From contig CAVYCN010000011.1 in assembly GCA_963767005.1 (NCBI GenBank), positions 45,108 to 109,107 of the forward strand: a stretch of 64,000 bases of DNA, in the 5' to 3' direction. The notes beneath the pieces were generated by a model. The model saw only the letters and a list, made by a program, of their open reading frames with translations. It searched no databases and was not told the DNA's origin. The stretch comes from an uncultured Actinomycetes bacterium. GTDB lineage: Bacteria; Actinomycetota; Thermoleophilia; UBA2241. Positions 29,693-37,299 of the stretch are shown here, piece after piece; within the stretch, counting starts at the first letter, position 1, and each line of letters starts with the position of its first letter. Position numbers and translations under genes: made by a program.

Positions 29693-31285
29693 TCAGGCCT
29701 CGTCCACCGGCGACCCCGCCGTCGCGCCCACGGGGGCGGCGACGCCCGGCCCGATGGCCGCATCGGCGTCAATGGCGAGCAGGTCGCTCTCCTGTACGGC
29801 CTGGCGCGCCAGGTTGCGCTTGCCGATCAGCCAGAACACGACGCCGGTGACGATGAAGAAGGCGAGGGTGCCCAGGGTGACGGCCTCGAAGAACACGCGC
29901 GAGACACCCCACGTCGACTCGATGTCGTAGCTCATACCAAGCATGTGGTCGAGCAGGCCGGGCCACAGCAGGGTGATCGCCGTGAGCACGATGACCGTCT
30001 CGGCGAGCACCACGCAGACCCACAGGCCGACGGTGCCGCCCGGCACGCGGTACGGGCGCGGCCGGTCCGGATACCTGCGGCGCAGCGGGATCACGGACGG
30101 CAGCATGAAGAAGTACATGAGCGCCGTCAGCGAGATGACCAGCGTCACCATCACGGTGAAGAAGTTCGCCAAGCTGCCGCTCGTGAGCTCGAACACCAGC
30201 ACGACGAAGACCGAGCCGATGATCGCCGAGACGACGTTCATGATCACCGGCGTGCCGGTGCGCTTCGAGAACCTGCCGAGCCACAGCGGGCCGGCGCCGT
30301 CGAGACCCGCTACCGCCTGCACGCGCACCGCGCCTTGCAGCCAGACGCCGCCGGCGCTGATCACGGTCAGGATGATGAGCACGCCGATCAGGTCGCTGAG
30401 CCCCTTGTTCACGCTGCCGTGCAGCACGCCGGCGGCCGCGAAGTACGCATCCGCGAAGCCGCTGACGTTGCCGATGCCCTTCAGCGGGATGACGAGCAGC
30501 ACGCCGAGGATCAGCGAGCCGGTGACCAGGCAGGCGACGATGCCGGAGCGTACGATCATGACCGGCACGTCGCGCTGGGCGTGCTTCATCTCCTCGGCGG
30601 CGCCGTTGGCGAGCTCGAAGCCGACAAACAGGAACTGCAGCAGCCCGATGAGGGCGAGGAAGCCGGTGACGGACGGCTTGACCGACGACAGCGTCGCAGT
30701 GCCGGCCGGCTTGCCGTGGCTCACCAGGAAGGCGACGACGAGCGCCAGGAAGATGACCAGCATCAGCAGGCGCACGATCGTGCCGAGTATGCCGGTCCAC
30801 TTGCCCCACTTGAGCTCGACAAGCGAGAGGCCGACGATCGACCACACGACAGCGACGCCAACGACGATCGAGGGCAGCGTGCCCATCGGGTTCTTCAGGT
30901 AGAAGGTGTTGATCGTCGTCACGACGGCGGCCGCCAGGGTGCCGCCCATCCACACAGGGTTGCTCATCCAGTAGAAGACCGAGGTGAGCGCGCCGGCCAG
31001 GCGGCCGAACGCCATGCGCGGCCACACGTAGGGCCCGCCCTCGACCGGAAACGTCGAGCCAAGCTCGGCGACGATCATGCCGTAGGGCAGCAGCCAGACC
31101 AGCAGCACGACGATCAGCCAGAAGAACGTCTGGCCGGCGCCGTAGGCGGCGGTCAGGGCGATCGTGTCGAGGCTGATGAACGCGGCGATCGTGAAGAAGA
31201 CGATGTCGAAGCGCGTCAGGACCTTGCGCATCTTGGTGCGCTCCCGGCCCATCGCTCCGGCCGGGTTCTGCTCGAGCGTGCTCAT
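29693..31285 (-). CDS. APC-family permease, candidate methylamine/amine transporter
   Basis: AELGSTFPVEGGPYVW, FVGFE..AEEM, about 12 TMs; begins 16 nt after the mttB stop. Confidence 0.85.
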   Translation of the reverse strand: MSTLEQNPAGAMGRERTKMRKVLTRFDIVFFTIAAFISLDTIALTAAYGAGQTFFWLIVVLLVWLLPYGMIVAELGSTFPVEGGPYVWPRMAFGRLAGALTSVFYWMSNPVWMGGTLAAAVVTTINTFYLKNPMGTLPSIVVGVAVVWSIVGLSLVELKWGKWTGILGTIVRLLMLVIFLALVVAFLVSHGKPAGTATLSSVKPSVTGFLALIGLLQFLFVGFELANGAAEEMKHAQRDVPVMIVRSGIVACLVTGSLILGVLLVIPLKGIGNVSGFADAYFAAAGVLHGSVNKGLSDLIGVLIILTVISAGGVWLQGAVRVQAVAGLDGAGPLWLGRFSKRTGTPVIMNVVSAIIGSVFVVLVFELTSGSLANFFTVMVTLVISLTALMYFFMLPSVIPLRRRYPDRPRPYRVPGGTVGLWVCVVLAETVIVLTAITLLWPGLLDHMLGMSYDIESTWGVSRVFFEAVTLGTLAFFIVTGVVFWLIGKRNLARQAVQESDLLAIDADAAIGPGVAAPVGATAGSPVDEA

Positions 31286-31301
31286 CTGCTCCCCCCTTGT
31301 C

Positions 31302-32771
31302 TCAGGCGACGCCGACCAGGCGGTCGGTGCGCTCGACGATCGCGTGGACGCGCGCGGCGATGTCCGCCGGCACGGGCTCGGGCCGGTACTCGCGCACGAC
31401 CTCGCGGGCCTTCTCGACGCACGAGGCGTAGAGCTCCCGCGCGCCGCGCTGCTCCCACTCCTCGCGCACGCGGCGGTCGAGCACTTCCGGCTGTGAGAGC
31501 TCGCGCATGTGGCGCAGGGTGGCGTCGAGCGACAGGAAGTCGCCGAAGCTGCCCACGCCGATGATGTCGTCGACCGCCAGGCTCTCGTCGTCGACGCGCA
31601 TGCCGCCGATCAGATGCTTGATCATGCGGGCGAACTCGTTGTCCATGACGAACTGCCCGCAATCGAAGGTGACGCCCGATTCGATCATCCCCGCACCGTA
31701 GATCAGGTTGGCCCCTGCCAACGCTGCCGTCAGTCCGGTGAGGGTCTTCTCGTGACCGACCTGCGCGTCACCGAGCTTGGCATCCGTCTACAACCCGGCA
31801 ACGAAGCTCGGCAACAGGTAGCGGCGCGCCATCTGCGCCACCGCCGCGCTGATCAGGGCGATCTCGGGCGAGCCGACCGAGGCGGCCGCGAGCTTCAGGT
31901 CCATGGCCGTGGTCGACGAGCCGTACATGACCGGGCAGCCGCGCTCGGTGAGCTGCGCCAGCGTGATGCCCGACAGCACCTCGGCGTTATGGGTGACGAG
32001 GGTGCCGGCCAGCGTGACCGGCGAGGAGCCGCCGGCCATCGCCATGCTCAGGATGTTGTCGGGGATCCACCAGCGCGAGGATTCGATGATGACCTCGGTC
32101 GCGTCGCGCGGGAGCTTCAGCGGACTCACCGGGCAGACGCCGCTGTAGAGGATCGGGCGCCGGCGGAGCTCGTCGGCGCCGCCGACGATCTCCGCCGCCA
32201 TCTCGAAGATGGCGACGGTCTCGGCGCGCGACAGCGGACCGACGCCGATCGGCTTGGTCGTGTTCAAGAGCTGGACCTCGGTGTTGTGCACCGCGGCCGT
32301 CTCGGGCGGCACGTCTTTGGCGCCGACCGCGATCTCGTGGGTGTCGAACTCGGAGAGGTAGTCGTTCAGGCGGGCGATGTCGGCGACGTCCTGCTTGGTC
32401 GAGTCGCGGTACTCGCCGGTCTCGACGTCGATCACGCGGATGCCCTCGCTGAAGTTCGTGAAGGCGACGCGGCCCGGCTCCATCACGAAGTCGTTCTCGG
32501 GGATGCGCCCGTAGAGCGTGTAGCGGCTGGGTGCCGACGCAATCGCGTCCTCCGCCACATGCGGCGGGATGCGCACCATGTGCGTCTCGCGGTCCGCGAC
32601 GCAGCCGCCGTCGGAGAAGATGTCGAGCGCCTCGTCGTCTTCGACGAACACGCCGGCGCGCTCAAGCACCTCGAGGCTCGCGAAGTGGATCTCCTCGACC
32701 TCAGACTCGGTGAAGACGCTGACGTGAAGACCGCCGCTGCGAGGCCGCCCGACGGACCGATTGCGCTTCAC
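31302..32771 (-). CDS. mttB: Trimethylamine:corrinoid methyltransferase with in-frame amber (pyrrolysine) codon, 489 aa
   Basis: ORFs 31788-32777 and 31302-31721 share a frame and are separated only by TAG 31790-31788. Readthrough gives LPSFVAGL-O-TDAKLGDAQVGHEKTL..AGANLIYGAGM, matching the Pyl site of methanogen MttB. GTG 32771 with RBS GAGGGGG. Confidence 0.93.
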
Positions 32772-32789
32772 ACGCACCCCCTCGCATCT

Positions 32790-32845
32790 GTTGCTTAGTC
32801 AGATAACTAAGTCTGGTACACTAGCAGGTGCGACCCCCCTGTCAA
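32790..32845 (-). promoter_or_regulatory. mttB promoter and palindromic operator
   Basis: -35 TTGACA (32845-32840), 16 nt, TGn-TAGTGT (32823-32818); operator CTTAGT-CAGATA-ACTAAG at 32794-32811. Confidence 0.85.
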
Positions 32846-32957
32846 GCAGTGGGCGGCGCTCGGGACGACGGCAGGGGCGGCCGCCGGCAGGCAGGCTGGA
32901 GCCGGCGGCCCCCAAGGGCAGTGGCAGGCGCAGAGGCGGCCAGATATCCTCACGCAC

Positions 32958-33590
32958 GTGGCGAGGTACGAGATCCCGATCGAAGACCCGACGCCGCACC
33001 TGGCGCCGACGGCGGCGCGCATCCTCGAAGCCGCTCGGCGCATCCTGGCGCGCGACGGCTTTCGCGCGCTCACCTTCGCCAACATCGCCGCCGAGGCACA
33101 AGAGAACAACGCGCTGATCCGCTACCACTTCGGCAGCAAGGCCGGCCTGCTCGCCACGCTCATCGACTCGGTGCTCTACCTCGAGAGCGTCGAGCTGATC
33201 GAGGAGCTCGCGAGCGTGCCGCCCGGCGACGAGCGTCGTCGAGCGCTCTTCGGCCTGCACGAGACCTACGTCAAAGACATCGACGGCTACCAGATGTTCT
33301 ACGAGCTCATCCCGCACATGCTGCGCGACCCAGAGCTGCGGCCCCGCCTCGCCAAGCTCTTCGACTGGTACCGCAAGCTCGACGCCTGGGCCCTGGGCGC
33401 GCAACCGGGCCCCGAGCACCCCACCGAGCTCGAGCCGCTCGCCCTGCTCACGGTGGCGATCGCCGACGGCGTTGCCCTACAGGTGCAGGCCGACCCCGAG
33501 CTCGACGTGCGGCCCGCCTTTCGCATCTGGCACCAGCTCATCCTGAGCTACCTCGACGACCACCGCCCCGGCGAGGGGCCGCAGAGCTAG
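32958..33590 (+). CDS. TetR/AcrR-family transcriptional regulator
   Basis: RILEAARRIL..GF..LT..IA..YHFGSK HTH; divergent from mttB. Confidence 0.92.
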   Translation: MARYEIPIEDPTPHLAPTAARILEAARRILARDGFRALTFANIAAEAQENNALIRYHFGSKAGLLATLIDSVLYLESVELIEELASVPPGDERRRALFGLHETYVKDIDGYQMFYELIPHMLRDPELRPRLAKLFDWYRKLDAWALGAQPGPEHPTELEPLALLTVAIADGVALQVQADPELDVRPAFRIWHQLILSYLDDHRPGEGPQS

Positions 33591-33647
33591 CCGCGTCGCG
33601 GCGGCTGCGGCTCAGAGCAGCGTCGTGCCGGTTGCCGCGGCGATGAG

Positions 33648-35117
33648 CTAGCCGCGCAACTCCGCGTCGGCCGCGGCGACGATGCGGCGCAGCTCGGCCG
33701 CCTTGTCGGGGGCGAGTGGTGCCGGCTCATAGTGGTCGAGGATGTCGCGGCCGCGCTCGCGCGCCACCTCGACGGGGTCGCGGTAGTGGGCGCCGTCAGG
33801 GCCGATCTCCTGGCCGATCGAGCGCTCGACCGTCTCCTTCATGTGCCGGCGCGTGTGCGGCTGCCCCAGGAAGTGCCCGCCCGGTCCGACCGCGTCGATC
33901 ACCTCGAGCGCGAGGGTCTCCTCGTCGAGCTCGACGTCCCTGAAGACGCTGGCGGCGCGGTGGTAGAGGTCGTCGTCGAGCAGCATGTGCTCGGGCGTGA
34001 AGAGCTGGTAGCGGTTGGTGAGCCCGATCGTCGTCATGAGCTCGGAGCCGACGACGCCGGCGGTCATCAGCGTGTGGGCGGTCTCGGCGGCGGCCAGCCA
34101 GGTGCCGGGCAGGTCGTCGTCGGTGCCGGCGTAGCCGGTCATCGCCGGCAGGCCGAAGTGGTGGACGAGCTCGCCCGGCAGAAAGAGGCCGCGGTGGTTG
34201 AGGGGCGCCGTGATCAGGGCCGCCGTGCGCGGGTCGGCGTGCACCGGCAGCGGGAAGAGGATCACCGGGCAGCCGGGATGGGCGAGCTGCAGCAGCACCG
34301 TGGCGCTGATCAGCTCGGCGAAGCCCATGACGTAGGCCCCGGCCTTGGTGGCCGGCGCGGTGGTGCCGAAGGTCGGCATCGTCACGAAGCAGACTGGCAC
34401 GCCCGCTGCGGCGAACACCAGGGCCGCCTCGACACCGTCTCTGTCGTTGACGAGGGGCTGCACGGTGCCGATCAGCGCGCTGAGCGGGGAGCGGCGGCGG
34501 AGCTCGCCGGCAGAGCCGGCGACGACCGCCGCCATCTCGACCGCATACCGAGCTGCCCGCTCGCCCTGCACCATGCCCTGCAGGTGCTTGGCGGTGTTGT
34601 TCCAGCCCGCCTCGAGCTCGTGGAGCGTATGCGTGTCGCCGCACTCCGAGGCCGCCACGTTGGGCCACCAGAACTGCACCGAGCCCAGGTAGTCGATCAG
34701 GCGGGTGATGGCTTCGAGGTCAGCCTTGGTCGACTGGCGACGCTCGCCGGTGTGCCAGTCGACCACCTCGGTGCCGCAGCCGTTCGTCGTGTTGAAGGTG
34801 GCGCCGCTCGCAAGGTCGAGGTCGCGGTCGCGGTCGCGAGAGCCGAGCCAGAACCGGCGCGGCGCGCGGCCGAGCGCTGCCATGACCAGGCCGGGGGCGA
34901 AGCGCACGACCTGCGTGGCGCGCTCCACCCGCGCGCCGTGCTCCTCGAGGATGTCGAGCGCCTTGGGCGAAGCGAACCGCACGCCGGTGTGCTCGAGCAC
35001 GTGCAGCACCGCATCGCGGTAGCGATCGAGGCGCTCGGGCGCGTAGAAGGTGACGGCAAAGTCGGAGCGCAGCGGCAGCAGCGGCTGCGGCACGCTCAGG
35101 TCGAGCTGCGAGCTCAT
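33648..35117 (-). CDS. MttB-superfamily methyltransferase without pyrrolysine, 489 aa
   Basis: VLEHTGV, AP..F.L.SR, NTAKH, GTTAPAT, GPGGHFL..HT. Gly at the Pyl-equivalent position (YAGTDD). ATG 35117 overlaps the mtbB stop (ATGA). Confidence 0.9.
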   Translation of the reverse strand: MSSQLDLSVPQPLLPLRSDFAVTFYAPERLDRYRDAVLHVLEHTGVRFASPKALDILEEHGARVERATQVVRFAPGLVMAALGRAPRRFWLGSRDRDRDLDLASGATFNTTNGCGTEVVDWHTGERRQSTKADLEAITRLIDYLGSVQFWWPNVAASECGDTHTLHELEAGWNNTAKHLQGMVQGERAARYAVEMAAVVAGSAGELRRRSPLSALIGTVQPLVNDRDGVEAALVFAAAGVPVCFVTMPTFGTTAPATKAGAYVMGFAELISATVLLQLAHPGCPVILFPLPVHADPRTAALITAPLNHRGLFLPGELVHHFGLPAMTGYAGTDDDLPGTWLAAAETAHTLMTAGVVGSELMTTIGLTNRYQLFTPEHMLLDDDLYHRAASVFRDVELDEETLALEVIDAVGPGGHFLGQPHTRRHMKETVERSIGQEIGPDGAHYRDPVEVARERGRDILDHYEPAPLAPDKAAELRRIVAAADAELRG

Positions 35118-36511
35118 GTCCTTTCCCTCGCTCTCACGTGACGCCGGAAACATTCGACCGAGTTGACCGGGATGTCCAGCGTCTCGGCGACGTGGAACTT
35201 GGCCTCGATCGCGCCGGGCTCGTCGGGGTACGTCAGGTCCTGTACCTGCAGGCGGCCGAGGCCGAGGTCGCGGCGCAGGTCGTGCATGGCGACCGGGTCG
35301 CTCAAGTCGTCCAGCGAGCAACCGAGCTTGTCGGCGACGTAGCGCTTGGCCTGCGGGAGGCGCAGGCCCCGGGTGATCTGCATGCGGGCCACCAGATCTC
35401 CGGCGGTCCGCATCCCGCCCATCCCCGAGGCGAGCGCGTGGGTGGAGGCCATCCCCAAGGGATCCCCCACGCCGACCTACAAGCCGTCGAGCTTGAGGAT
35501 GTCCACGAGCGCGCGCGAGGCGCGTGAGGTGGCGTCGACCGGCGGGTAGGGCGTCATCGGCACACCGCCGACGCCCATGCCGGCGTTCATGTGGACTGGG
35601 ATGGTCGACTCGGCGGTCACCGGCTTGACGAGGGCACAGGCGCGCGCCGTGTTCCAGGCGAGCGACTTCGTCGTATTGACGTTGACCGCGGGACCGAAGA
35701 TGGTGGCGCCCGCCGCGGTCACCACCCGGAGCTGGTCGAGCGGCCACATGCCGGCCAGACGGCGGCCCTCGTAGGCGAGCTCGCCGTGCATGCCGAGCAC
35801 GAGCTCGGCCGCCTGCCCGACCTCGACGCCGATGTCGGGCCAGCGACTTCGCACCTCACGCACGACGTGCAGCGTGGCCAGCAGGTCGGCGTCGCCGGCG
35901 GCGCCGGCGGTGTCGAAGTCGAGGCCGTCGGCGCCGGCCGCGATCATGGTCTCGGCGACGACCAGCATGTCGCGCTCGAGCAGCGGCATGGCCTCTTCCT
36001 GGGCCGCGCGCGCCTCGTCGATCCTGCCGAGCGGCAGGAGCTGCGACCAGTTGCCGACCGGACCGTCGGGCTGCGAGTAGCGGCCCAGGTCAGGCATCGC
36101 ACCGTAGTTGAGCGGCACGACGGTCTGAAGCTGGGCCTCCTTCATCATCTGGGCCTGGAACGACAGGACGGTGCGCACCGCCTTGTAGGAGTAGTCGTGG
36201 TGCCAGAGCTCGACCGAATCGGCGCCGTGGTGGTTCTGGTAGACGACCTGCTCCATCACGGGAAAGCCGATGTCGCCGTTGCCGGCGCCGTCAAAGCTGA
36301 GCACGACCTCGTCGCCGCAGTCGACCGAGCTGAACTTCGCCGGCGAGGTGAAGATGTCGAGCAGGTGGGCGATCTCGTCGGCGGCGAGCGGCGGCACCTT
36401 CGCGCGGCGCACCGCGGCCTCGACACCCGCGTTCAAGTCGGCTTCGATCTCGGCCGCGGTCAGCGCCACGCGAGAGCCGTCCCCGAGCCGCGTAGCAAAG
36501 CGCTGTGCCAT
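35114..36511 (-). CDS. mtbB: Dimethylamine:corrinoid methyltransferase with in-frame amber (pyrrolysine) codon, 465 aa
   Basis: N-terminal TRLGDG, DYSYKAV, YGAMPDLGRY, FDTAGAAGD, GMGVGGVPM. LDGL-TAG(35479-35477)-VGVGDPLGM..SGMGGMRTAGDLVARMQ continues in frame. RBS GGAGG before ATG 36511. Confidence 0.93.
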
Positions 36512-36525
36512 GACCGCCTCCGGGA

Positions 36526-36585
36526 GTTGCTTAGTCAGATAACTAAGACCTGGGGAACTTAGCCGGACGGCGGGCGGGTTGTCAA
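36526..36585 (-). promoter_or_regulatory. mtbB promoter and second copy of the operator
   Basis: -35 TTGACA (36585-36580), 18 nt, TAAGTT (36561-36556); operator CTTAGTCAGATAACTAAG at 36530-36547. Confidence 0.85.
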
Positions 36586-36639: not shown

Positions 36640-37299
36640 CTACGCCAGCACGACGATGCCCTTGGTCGTGTAGATCGTGCCGATCGCGCCGAACAGGATC
36701 AGCAGGATGGGGCGTTGATGGACGGTCAGCCAGGCCTTGGCCCGGAGCATGGCGAGCGCCACGCGGCGGCGCGCCGCGATCGAGGCCAGCACGATCGCCA
36801 CGGGGATCGAGCAGGCCACGGCGACGAAGACGGCGAGGGCGACGAAGGCATCGGCGCGCGACAGGTCGCCGCCCAGGATGTCCATCATGGCCGGCGCCTG
36901 CATCTCGTAATTGACGAGGAGCAGACCGACGCCCGCGGCGCCGCCGGGCCCCATGGCGGTGATGATGCGCATCCAGCGCGGCTCGTGCTCGCCGGCGTCG
37001 GGCGCGGGCTTGCGCAGCCAGAGCACGAGAAAGGCGGCAAGAAAGCCGAGGCCGACGAGCAGCCAGGCCACGCGGATCAGGTAGGCGACGTCGCCGCCAG
37101 AGGTGAAGGCGGCATCGTGGAACAGCAGGAGCACGACCGTCCCGAGCACGGCCATGATGAGAGCCAGGACGACGACGTAGGTGAGACCGTTCAGGACCGG
37201 CCGCCGCGTGGCCGTCATGAGCAGCGCGGCGATGATCGGCACCGGGTTGACGGTGATGGCGACCGCCACGGGCAGGATCTGCAGCAGCACCGCGTTCAT
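36640..37299 (-). CDS. GAP/Sap-family membrane protein
   Basis: ILPVAVAITVNPVPIIA, EPRWM, KAWL..H; 6 TMs. Confidence 0.7.
   Translation of the reverse strand: MNAVLLQILPVAVAITVNPVPIIAALLMTATRRPVLNGLTYVVVLALIMAVLGTVVLLLFHDAAFTSGGDVAYLIRVAWLLVGLGFLAAFLVLWLRKPAPDAGEHEPRWMRIITAMGPGGAAGVGLLLVNYEMQAPAMMDILGGDLSRADAFVALAVFVAVACSIPVAIVLASIAARRRVALAMLRAKAWLTVHQRPILLILFGAIGTIYTTKGIVVLA

What the first reader, a model, noticed from the sequence alone, without database searches (positions are those of the whole stretch)
32790..36547. Identical 22-bp operator at the start of both pyrrolysine-gene operons
Seen: GTTGCTTAGTCAGATAACTAAG occurs exactly at 32790-32811 and 36526-36547. Its core is the palindrome CTTAGT-N6-ACTAAG, 6-8 nt downstream of the -10 of a TTGACA promoter in each case. 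Known: TetR repressors bind such palindromes over the TSS. Inference: the adjacent TetR is a methylamine- or quaternary-amine-responsive repressor, a sensor type I do not know to be described. The motif may also mark the pyl genes.
Basis: partly seen in the sequence, partly recalled or inferred. Interest (0 to 1): 0.75.

Follow-up and report, generated by a model that had tools for sequence, protein, structure and literature searches.

The report
TetR operator pair on methylamine genes
A 22-base sequence occurs twice, just behind the predicted promoters of two pyrrolysine-type methylamine-methyltransferase operons that flank a TetR-family gene in an uncultured actinobacterium; it is conserved in many relatives and is very likely that repressor's binding site, a local switch predicted to respond to a methylated amine, and it does not mark the pyrrolysine-making genes.

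Summary
Observation confirmed. The 22-mer is exact at 32790 and 36526, behind TTGACA/TAnnnT promoters of a Pyl-mttB–permease operon and a Pyl-mtbB–non-Pyl-mttB operon flanking a tetR gene (class Thermoleophilia).

The conserved element is a 20-mer, TTAGTTA-N6-TAACTAA, with a second 16-bp axis. It is found at the first promoter in 51 of 51 testable orthologous loci and at the second in 33 of 33. It follows the TetR recognition helix (ENxALIRYHF) even where that TetR sits beside unrelated genes, so the adjacent TetR is very likely its binder.

Two claims fail. The genome holds 16 TAG-bearing methyltransferase genes in 10 loci, not two operons, and the motif occurs only at these two sites: none at pyl genes here or within 1.5 kb of pylB in 10 relatives.

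The ligand is untested. Context and the closest solved homologue (crystallised with trimethylamine and choline) favour an N-methylated amine. Choline-, agmatine- and methylamine-sensing repressors are already known (BetI, AguR, archaeal AmzR); my searches found no regulator described for bacterial Pyl methyltransferases. The scan found this same system before in two other genomes. New member of a known kind.

The parts
32791..32810 (-).
   Evidence: (34.9 bits on a matrix trained on relatives only)
36527..36546 (-). Operator O2, identical 20-mer
   Evidence: (33.6 bits)
32818..32845 (-). Predicted promoter P1: TTGACA-N16-TAGTGT with extended -10 TG
   Evidence: sequence; TG and TAnnnT invariant in 39 orthologous promoters; not called by the strict scan
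36556..36585 (-). Predicted promoter P2: TTGACA-N18-TAAGTT
   Evidence: sequence; orthologues show TTGACA with TATCGT/TAGGGT/TACAGT-type hexamers; alignment
31302..32777 (-). mttB, trimethylamine:corrinoid methyltransferase, in-frame TAG at codon 330 (31788-31790) at the pyrrolysine position
   Evidence: TIGR02369 667 bits vs cut-off 525; TAG aligns with the corresponding position of PDB 7XCM
29693..31285 (-). APC-family amino acid/amine permease, second gene of operon 1
   Evidence: PF13520; 16 bp after the mttB stop
32958..33590 (+). TetR-family regulator (210 aa; recognition-helix region ENNALIRYHF), divergent from operon 1 and convergent with operon 2
   Evidence: PF00440 41.8 bits vs 24; nine-helix model, pLDDT 86.7; TetR folds Z 14.6-17.5
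32945..32950 (+). Possible -10 (TATCCT) of the tetR gene, 7 nt before its GTG (leaderless transcript predicted), about 135 bp from O1
   Evidence: GATATCCT seen in 6 of 51 orthologous upstream regions, those with the closest layout; inference
35114..36511 (-). mtbB, dimethylamine:corrinoid methyltransferase, in-frame TAG at codon 345 (35477-35479)
   Evidence: TIGR02368 434 bits vs cut-off 369; PF09505
33648..35117 (-). Non-pyrrolysine MttB-superfamily methyltransferase, overlapping the mtbB stop; substrate unknown
   Evidence: PF06253, below the TIGR02369 cut-off; about equally distant from glycine betaine and trimethylamine methyltransferase structures

Best explanation
The two identical sequences are very likely operators for the TetR protein encoded between them, which is predicted to sit over the starts of both methylamine-methyltransferase transcripts and to let go when it binds an N-methylated amine, most likely trimethylamine or dimethylamine. 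Shown: position, conservation, gene identities, co-variation with the recognition helix, and absence of the site elsewhere in the genome. Inferred, high confidence (about 0.9): this TetR binds the site and represses P1 and P2; the regulon is these two operons only. Inferred, moderate (about 0.5): the 20-mer holds two half-site pairs staggered by 4 bp and may bind two dimers. Inferred, moderate (about 0.55): the inducer is trimethylamine or dimethylamine, taken up by the co-transcribed permease and demethylated by MttB then MtbB. The corrinoid partner and pyrrolysine come from genes outside this regulon in this genome.
For: (1) Of 41 genomes, the 16-bp pattern occurs in exactly the 4 that carry a 79-100% identical TetR, twice each at the two promoters, and in 0 of the other 37. 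(2) Among 52 loci of this TetR clade, O1 is present at up to 2 mismatches in 51 of 51 loci with enough upstream DNA and O2 in 33 of 33; the best match inside the tetR gene has 5 or more mismatches in 52 of 52. (3) O1 starts 32-39 nt after the start of TTGACA in 48 of 51 loci, 38 nt in 38 of them. (4) All 53 tested TetRs with helix xALIRY score 30.0-45.6 bits upstream; 51 of these are the training clade. The 49 with other helices score at most 20.6 and carry their own related palindromes. (5) Four TetRs (helix EN[G/A]ALIRYHF) from another family carry the same kind of site but lie beside ABC-transporter, caprolactamase-like or unannotated genes, which ties the site to the helix rather than to the target genes. 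(6) Inner positions vary in pairs between relatives (TCA..TGA in G011, TTA..TAA in G003/G004). (7) The best PDB sequence match (E 2e-16, next protein 2e-12) is a Saccharomonospora viridis TetR deposited with trimethylamine and with choline; the WY and DG motifs align. (8) His101 is present in 72 of 72 TetRs of the four methyltransferase-linked groups and Tyr111 in 71 of 72, against 0 of 31 and 1 of 31 in the two groups linked to other genes.
Against: No binding, expression or ligand data; none could be obtained. Kin are not independent, some loci are the same organism fetched twice, and the mismatch consensus was set after seeing part of these loci. The Saccharomonospora protein is only 21-24% identical and is not the top structural match (Z 16.3 against 17.5 and 17.3 for uncharacterised TetRs); its ligand contacts could not be inspected. 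In the ligand-domain tree the methyltransferase-linked TetRs are not one clade: this clade's sister group (support 0.6) is the one beside caprolactamase-like genes. Four other Pyl-linked TetRs (C4_544595, C18_38219, L021, L026) lack His101. A second TetR in the same genome controls another mtbB-mttB operon and has different predicted pocket residues, so at least one of the two may sense something other than plain trimethylamine or dimethylamine. BetI stays on DNA with choline (PMC5934670), so release is not guaranteed.
Confidence: 0.55

Rival explanations
1. Same operator and same repressor, but the inducer is a larger N-methyl or quaternary amine (the substrate or product of the co-regulated non-Pyl MttB, for example a choline- or betaine-like compound), not trimethylamine or dimethylamine.
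For: A non-Pyl mttB lies directly behind tetR in nearly all loci of the clade that extend far enough, and a second is often in operon 1. The closest outgroup TetRs (L089, L093) sit beside a non-Pyl mttB only. The nearest solved homologue also binds choline. The genome has 8 Pyl mtbB and 7 Pyl mttB paralogues under several regulators, which suggests divided substrates.
Against: The first gene behind each operator is a Pyl enzyme above the trimethylamine or dimethylamine equivalog cut-off. The transporter is an APC permease, not a betaine/choline type. The TetR is far below the BetI cut-off.
Confidence: 0.27
2. The TetR binds the site, but not as a simple ligand-released repressor: it stays bound with its effector, as BetI does, or responds to a downstream metabolite rather than the amine.
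For: BetI remains on its operator with choline (PMC5934670). In most orthologues the site starts downstream of the predicted +1 rather than on the -10.
Against: Release on ligand binding is the usual TetR behaviour (established knowledge; AguR in PMC4287709). A site at about +1 to +25 fits steric repression.
Confidence: 0.12
3. The repeat is a relic of promoter duplication, or is bound by some other regulator, and the tetR gene is only a neighbour.
For: Perfect identity of the two copies is unusual: 1 of 33 relatives shows it.
Against: Flanks and spacers of the two promoters differ while the 20-mer is kept. The site follows the recognition helix across unrelated gene contexts and is absent from 37 of 37 genomes lacking the close orthologue.
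Confidence: 0.04
4. The motif defines a genome-wide pyrrolysine regulon that includes the pyl and corrinoid genes.
For: Both sites precede TAG-bearing genes; pyl expression depends on trimethylamine in Acetohalobium and Methanosarcina (PMC11467909, PMC12626013, passages).
Against: Only two sites in the genome; the next unrelated score is 8.9 bits against a training range of 28-49. Scores are negative around pylB, C, D, T, Sn and Sc here and within 1.5 kb of pylB in 10 of 10 relatives. Of the 16 TAG-bearing methyltransferase genes, 14 lie in loci without the site.
Confidence: 0.02

Closest known systems
TetR/tetO paradigm of TetR-family repressors (recalled)
   Same: N-terminal PF00440 helix-turn-helix, nine-helix fold, AT-rich palindrome at an adjacent divergent promoter, local regulon.
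   Different: A second operator lies 3.7 kb away at a convergent operon. The site is a 20-mer with two symmetry axes. The tetR gene's own predicted promoter is about 135 bp from the site, so autoregulation is not evident.
Saccharomonospora viridis TetR (PDB 4ICH, 4JNN, 4KWA with choline, 4NEL with trimethylamine)
   Same: Best sequence-profile match in the PDB (E about 1e-15 to 1e-16), Z 16.3; shared WY and DG motifs.
   Different: 21-24% identity; no paper on its function found; its target genes and ligand contacts were not examined.
BetI of Escherichia coli (choline-responsive TetR; PMC5934670, passages)
   Same: TetR family, single-locus regulon, quaternary-amine effector.
   Different: 28 bits against the TIGR03384 cut-off of 201; controls choline oxidation, not corrinoid methyl transfer; stays bound with choline.
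AguR of Pseudomonas aeruginosa (agmatine-responsive TetR; PMC4287709, passages)
   Same: Amine-catabolic operon repressed by an adjacent TetR until the amine binds. Paralogues of this TetR in the same genome flank agmatine-deiminase-type and carbamoyltransferase genes.
   Different: AguR binds between -35 and -10, whereas this site lies past -10; different targets; sequence relationship not tested.
AmzR (MA2561) of Methanosarcina acetivorans (10.1101/2025.05.05.652248, abstract and passages)
   Same: One-component repressor of Pyl methylamine methyltransferase genes, loosened by methylamines: what this system most likely works like.
   Different: Archaea-specific, no helix-turn-helix (basic coiled coil), acts on a dispersed regulon. 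This is a bacterial TetR with a two-site local regulon.
QacR-IR1 cooperative two-dimer binding (PDB 1JT0 title; geometry recalled)
   Same: A long operator with staggered half-sites could hold two dimers.
   Different: Stoichiometry here is only inferred from sequence symmetry.

Membership tests
TetR-family repressor/operator system | N-terminal TetR helix-turn-helix domain | tested here: met
   PF00440 41.8 bits, cut-off 24
TetR-family repressor/operator system | All-helical C-terminal ligand/dimer domain, about nine helices in all | tested here: met
   Model with 9 helices, pLDDT 86.7; the listed matches are TetR-type regulators, Z 14.6-17.5, rmsd 2.3-4.5 over 163-189 residues
TetR-family repressor/operator system | Conserved palindromic site at a neighbouring promoter that varies with the recognition helix | tested here: met
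   51 of 51 and 33 of 33 loci; helix-class dependence
TetR-family repressor/operator system | Physical binding of the dimer to the site and ligand-triggered release | not testable with these tools
   needs EMSA or footprinting
TetR-family repressor/operator system | Autoregulation through the shared divergent operator (common, not obligatory) | tested here: inconclusive
   site lies 82-241 bp before the tetR start; the candidate tetR -10 is about 135 bp from it in this genome
BetI (choline-binding repressor) | TIGR03384 / PRK00767 score above cut-off | tested here: not met
   28.3 vs 201.3 and 23.7 vs 118 bits
BetI (choline-binding repressor) | Adjacent betT/betAB choline oxidation genes | tested here: not met
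   neighbours are mttB, mtbB, non-Pyl mttB and an APC permease
AmzR methylamine sensors | [quoted passage not shown] | tested here: not met
   TetR helix-turn-helix present; Thermoleophilia homologues
AmzR methylamine sensors | Binds methylamines, which lowers DNA affinity (works-like question) | not testable with these tools
   no ligand assay; amines are not among the ligands offered for modelling
AguR (agmatine-responsive TetR) | Controls agmatine deiminase genes | tested here: not met
   this TetR flanks methyltransferases; paralogues flank deiminase genes
AguR (agmatine-responsive TetR) | Sequence orthology to P. aeruginosa AguR | not tested
   no AguR sequence was retrieved
Genome-wide pyrrolysine regulon | Site at pyl genes and at other Pyl methyltransferase or corrinoid loci | tested here: not met
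Pyl-dependent MttB/MtbB target genes | Equivalog score above cut-off, in-frame TAG at the Pyl position, complete pyl machinery in the genome | tested here: met
   tRNA-Pyl; PylB, C, D, Sn, Sc above cut-offs

The most novel reading that the evidence does not exclude
This TetR is a direct trimethylamine/dimethylamine sensor, the first for bacterial pyrrolysine methyltransferase genes (about 0.5 on its own). It belongs to a lineage-specific radiation of amine-reading TetRs with a readable helix-to-operator code, and one paralogue in this genome (C4, about 544 kb) gates an operon that ends in a second pylB and pylD, so amine sensing by this family also sets the pyrrolysine supply.
Probability: 0.2. 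Interest if true: 0.7.

Novelty: new member of a known kind. Interest (0 to 1): 0.4.

Why it matters
The switch is of an ordinary kind, but its targets are not. Papers state that the mechanism linking methylamines to pyrrolysine-system expression in a bacterium was not determined (10.1101/2024.09.30.615893, passage) and that the direct methylamine sensor in a methylotrophic bacterium is unidentified (PMC13199381, passage). This locus gives a defined 210-residue protein, two 20-bp sites and two promoters that can be tested in E. coli without culturing the organism. If it binds trimethylamine or dimethylamine it is a bacterial counterpart of archaeal AmzR and a ready part for an amine biosensor. 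Ligand screens across the paralogues could also point to substrates of the many unassigned MttB-family enzymes. It does not by itself explain control of amber decoding, because the site is absent from the pyl genes.

Tried and rejected
Global regulon: rejected. The two C5/C13 two-mismatch hits are one duplicated 3-kb segment, 96.6% identical.

Amber read-through feedback on the repressor: the tetR gene ends in TAG and read-through would add 516 residues antisense to the non-Pyl mttB, echoing a hypothesis in PMC12626013. In the clade the stop is TGA in 40, TAG in 9, TAA in 1 and cut off in 2 of 52, against about 35% TAG in long coding frames on five contigs of this genome. Rejected as a conserved mechanism.

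Third sites: in G320 and G373 a one-mismatch site (26.5 bits) lies 23-24 kb from pylB but just upstream of an Lrp-like gene and a permease, not pyl genes.

Strict promoter scan: 0 promoters; no convincing terminator between the convergent genes. Expression: no RNA holder was listed, which is no evidence either way. Protein atlas: not answered. Acetyl-CoA synthase (PF03598) not found with this query in this genome, so the fate of the methyl groups is left open.

The reversed-pattern control rang once in 9 of 41 genomes (in this genome it fits the AT-rich palindrome before another TetR paralogue) and in 6 of 401. The group profile was mis-grouped and is replaced; only its tree is used.

Literature searches without a relevant hit for this regulator. 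The original Acetohalobium paper was not held; it is cited through a review passage. No supplementary files were opened; tables of predicted regulons there could bear on the novelty claim.
Full report
Observation. The 22-mer is present exactly at 32790-32811 and 36526-36547 and the identity stops there. The core pattern has 2 matches in the window at up to 2 mismatches (shuffle mean 0.16) and only these 2 in the whole 3.44-Mb genome at up to 1 mismatch. A chance second copy is expected about 3e-9 times. Read on the minus strand, each copy follows TTGACA and a TAnnnT hexamer at 16 and 18 nt spacing, 6 and 8 nt past the hexamer, and precedes a purine-rich ribosome-binding-like stretch and a start codon. 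The strict sigma-70 scan calls neither promoter, but the TG and TAnnnT of the first are invariant in 39 distinct orthologous promoters.

Anatomy. Behind site 1 lie a Pyl-type mttB (TIGR02369 above cut-off; its TAG aligns with the corresponding position of PDB 7XCM) and an APC permease. Behind site 2 lie a Pyl-type mtbB (TIGR02368 above cut-off) and a non-Pyl MttB-family gene of unknown substrate. Between them on the plus strand is a 210-residue TetR, divergent from operon 1 and convergent with operon 2. Homologues are labelled Thermoleophilia. The genome has tRNA-Pyl and PylB, C, D, Sn and Sc above their cut-offs on contig C3. It has 41 MttB-family matches, 7 with one TAG, 8 MtbB, all with TAG, and 1 TAG-bearing MtmB of 4: 16 Pyl genes in 10 loci. 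These are therefore not 'both' Pyl operons.

Is the site the TetR's operator? Among 41 genomes a relaxed 16-bp pattern occurs in 4, twice in each; these are exactly the genomes with a 79-100% identical TetR (next best 53%), and the sites lie at the same two promoters. I then fetched 104 loci around homologues. One had no usable TetR match, and 52 belong to the clade (60% identity or more, helix EN[PNAQ]ALIRYHF). Site 1 is present at up to 2 mismatches in 51 of 51 loci with at least 150 bp upstream (1 left out). Site 2 is present in 33 of 33 loci that include DNA upstream of the convergent mtbB (19 left out). The best match inside the tetR gene has at least 5 mismatches in all 52. These loci are kin, a few are the same organism fetched twice, and the consensus was fixed after seeing some of them, so the counts show consistency, not a probability. 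In a class-wide sample 48 of 401 genomes have a 20-bp match at up to 1 mismatch: this genome, 34 of 74 others in its family and 13 of 326 outside; the reversed control rang in 6.

The strongest link is the recognition helix. All 53 tested TetRs with xALIRY have an upstream site of 30.0-45.6 bits (51 are the training clade), while the 49 with other helices reach at most 20.6 bits. The others carry their own related palindromes: ENKASIRY with TCATTyATCCGGATGA-type sites at a second kind of Pyl operon, and ESKASIGY with TTGTCCGTCCGGACA before carbamoyltransferase and deiminase-type genes. Four TetRs of another family with EN[G/A]ALIRYHF have this window's kind of site but sit beside ABC-transporter, caprolactamase-like or unannotated genes; in the two with 12.6 kb of DNA no methyltransferase was seen. 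The site follows the helix, not the target genes. This supports the TetR assignment and also shows that the site says nothing about the ligand.

What the element really is. Across 68 distinct site sequences, the outer arms of a 20-mer (positions 0-6 and 13-19) are conserved at 88% or more and the flanks are not: TTAGTTA-N6-TAACTAA. The arms of this 20-bp axis pair at a mean 6.4 of 7 (site 1) and 6.3 (site 2); a 16-bp axis sharing the left arm pairs at 6.1 and 5.1. Two axes whose right arms are 4 bp apart suggest two staggered dimers, as recalled for QacR; this is inference. Perfect identity of the two copies is not required: 1 of 33 relatives shows it.

Regulon size. A matrix trained on relatives scores the two sites 34.9 and 33.6 bits (training range 28-49); the best unrelated place in the genome scores 8.9. 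Scores are negative around the pyl genes here and within 1.5 kb of pylB in 10 of 10 relatives. In several relatives pylB ends a longer run of genes whose promoter lies outside that stretch, but the sites listed for those genomes were the module's own, plus one site in G320 and in G373 before an Lrp-like gene. The motif does not mark the pyl genes.

Ligand. Not tested. For a methylated amine: the first genes of both operons are trimethylamine and dimethylamine methyltransferase equivalogs. The best PDB profile match is a Saccharomonospora TetR deposited with trimethylamine (4NEL) and choline (4KWA). His101 (72 of 72) and Tyr111 (71 of 72) mark four methyltransferase-linked groups and are nearly absent from two others (0 and 1 of 31). 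Many of the 16 paralogous matches in this genome flank amine-catabolic genes. Against: identity to that structure is 21-24% and it is not the top fold match. The methyltransferase-linked TetRs are not one clade. Four Pyl-linked TetRs lack His101. A co-regulated non-Pyl MttB could define the signal instead. I put trimethylamine or dimethylamine with release at 0.55, another N-methyl or quaternary amine at 0.27, and binding without simple release at 0.12.

Comparison with what is known. It is a member of the TetR repressor-operator kind on every feature that could be tested. It is not BetI (28 bits against 201) and not AmzR (it has a helix-turn-helix), but it most likely works like AmzR. Amine-sensing repressors are described: BetI with choline (PMC5934670, passages), AguR with agmatine (PMC4287709, passages), AmzR with methylamines (10.1101/2025.05.05.652248, abstract and passages). 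Methylamine-binding dCache receptors are also listed (PMC12358799, passages). Trimethylamine-dependent pyl expression is reported for Acetohalobium (PMC11467909, passage) and Methanosarcina (PMC12626013, passages), with the bacterial mechanism undetermined (10.1101/2024.09.30.615893, passage); a direct bacterial methylamine sensor is called unidentified in PMC13199381 (passages). Searches (listings only, apart from the papers named) showed no description of this TetR group; most subscription journals are not covered.

Earlier notes of this scan. Two follow-ups on other genomes (e1-1241812, e1-1113690) reached the same reading of a 20-bp operator pair; I saw them after my own analysis, and they are not independent evidence. 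There a different palindrome (TTTGTGCGTCGCACAAA; a G320 homologue shows the paired change TTTGTGTGTCACACAAA) precedes a lower-GC gene run that ends in a second pylB and pylD without pylC. That paralogue was found in 4 of 88 other family genomes, the best at 65% identity, G320 has a single pylB elsewhere, and co-transcription is untested.

Verdict. A real, well-supported local TetR operator pair on unusual target genes; ligand likely an N-methylated amine; no link to the pyl genes. New member of a known kind; interest 0.4.

Noticed in passing
L143:3985-14334 (G000:C4, about 544-554 kb): Lower-GC stretch (63-68% against 71%): a TetR paralogue divergent from Pyl mttB, corrinoid protein, two APC permeases, non-Pyl mttB, second pylB, a short frame that looks like a DeoR-type helix-turn-helix (by eye), and second pylD; no pylC. 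It has its own palindrome just behind a TTGACA promoter, with a paired change in G320.
   Followed up: partly
L140:4134-10331 (G000:C3, 156-162 kb): A second TetR-Pyl module (helix ENKASIRYHF) divergent from mtbB-mttB-corrinoid-non-Pyl mttB, with a related but distinct operator; different predicted pocket residues suggest a different ligand.
   Followed up: partly
G000, 16 tblastn matches on C3, C4, C5, C6, C12, C18: Expanded TetR subfamily with an atypical third helix (no Tyr at the usual first position); many members flank amine-catabolic genes and several have operators with 4-bp periodicity. Found in 23 of 24 family genomes and 2 of 16 others sampled.
   Followed up: partly
L091, L095, L165, L166: TetRs of another Thermoleophilia family with the same helix and operator type but ABC-transporter, caprolactamase-like or unannotated neighbours: same DNA specificity, probably a different ligand.
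   Followed up: partly
L158:2096-8371 and L003:8049-8912 (G000:C3, 236-246 kb): The pyl genes are split: pylBCD then pylT, pylSn about 2.5 kb further, pylSc about 3 kb further on the other strand; pylC and pylSn end in TAG. A tRNA-Sec is also present.
   Followed up: partly
L017:13178-13801 (G004:C167): A TetR paralogue in a relative has an in-frame TAG inside its match; could be a broken gene or a read-through-dependent regulator.
   Followed up: no
L189:5956-5975 and L190:6000-6019 (G320, G373): A related 20-mer (26.5 bits) upstream of an Lrp-like gene and a permease, just after a run of genes that look like folate-pathway enzymes (by eye); may be an extra target or a paralogue's site.
   Followed up: partly
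window 29693-32777: Operon 1 here lacks the corrinoid gene that G003 and G004 carry between mttB and the permease; the genome has 16 B12-binding matches elsewhere.
   Followed up: partly
G000:C5:49501-52500 and C13:31859-34837: A 3-kb segment present twice at 96.6% identity (duplication or strain mixture).
   Followed up: no
window 36640-37299 (-): Gene upstream of promoter P2 is a Sap/SfLAP-family membrane protein; many relatives have a further divergent mtbB at this place instead.
   Followed up: no
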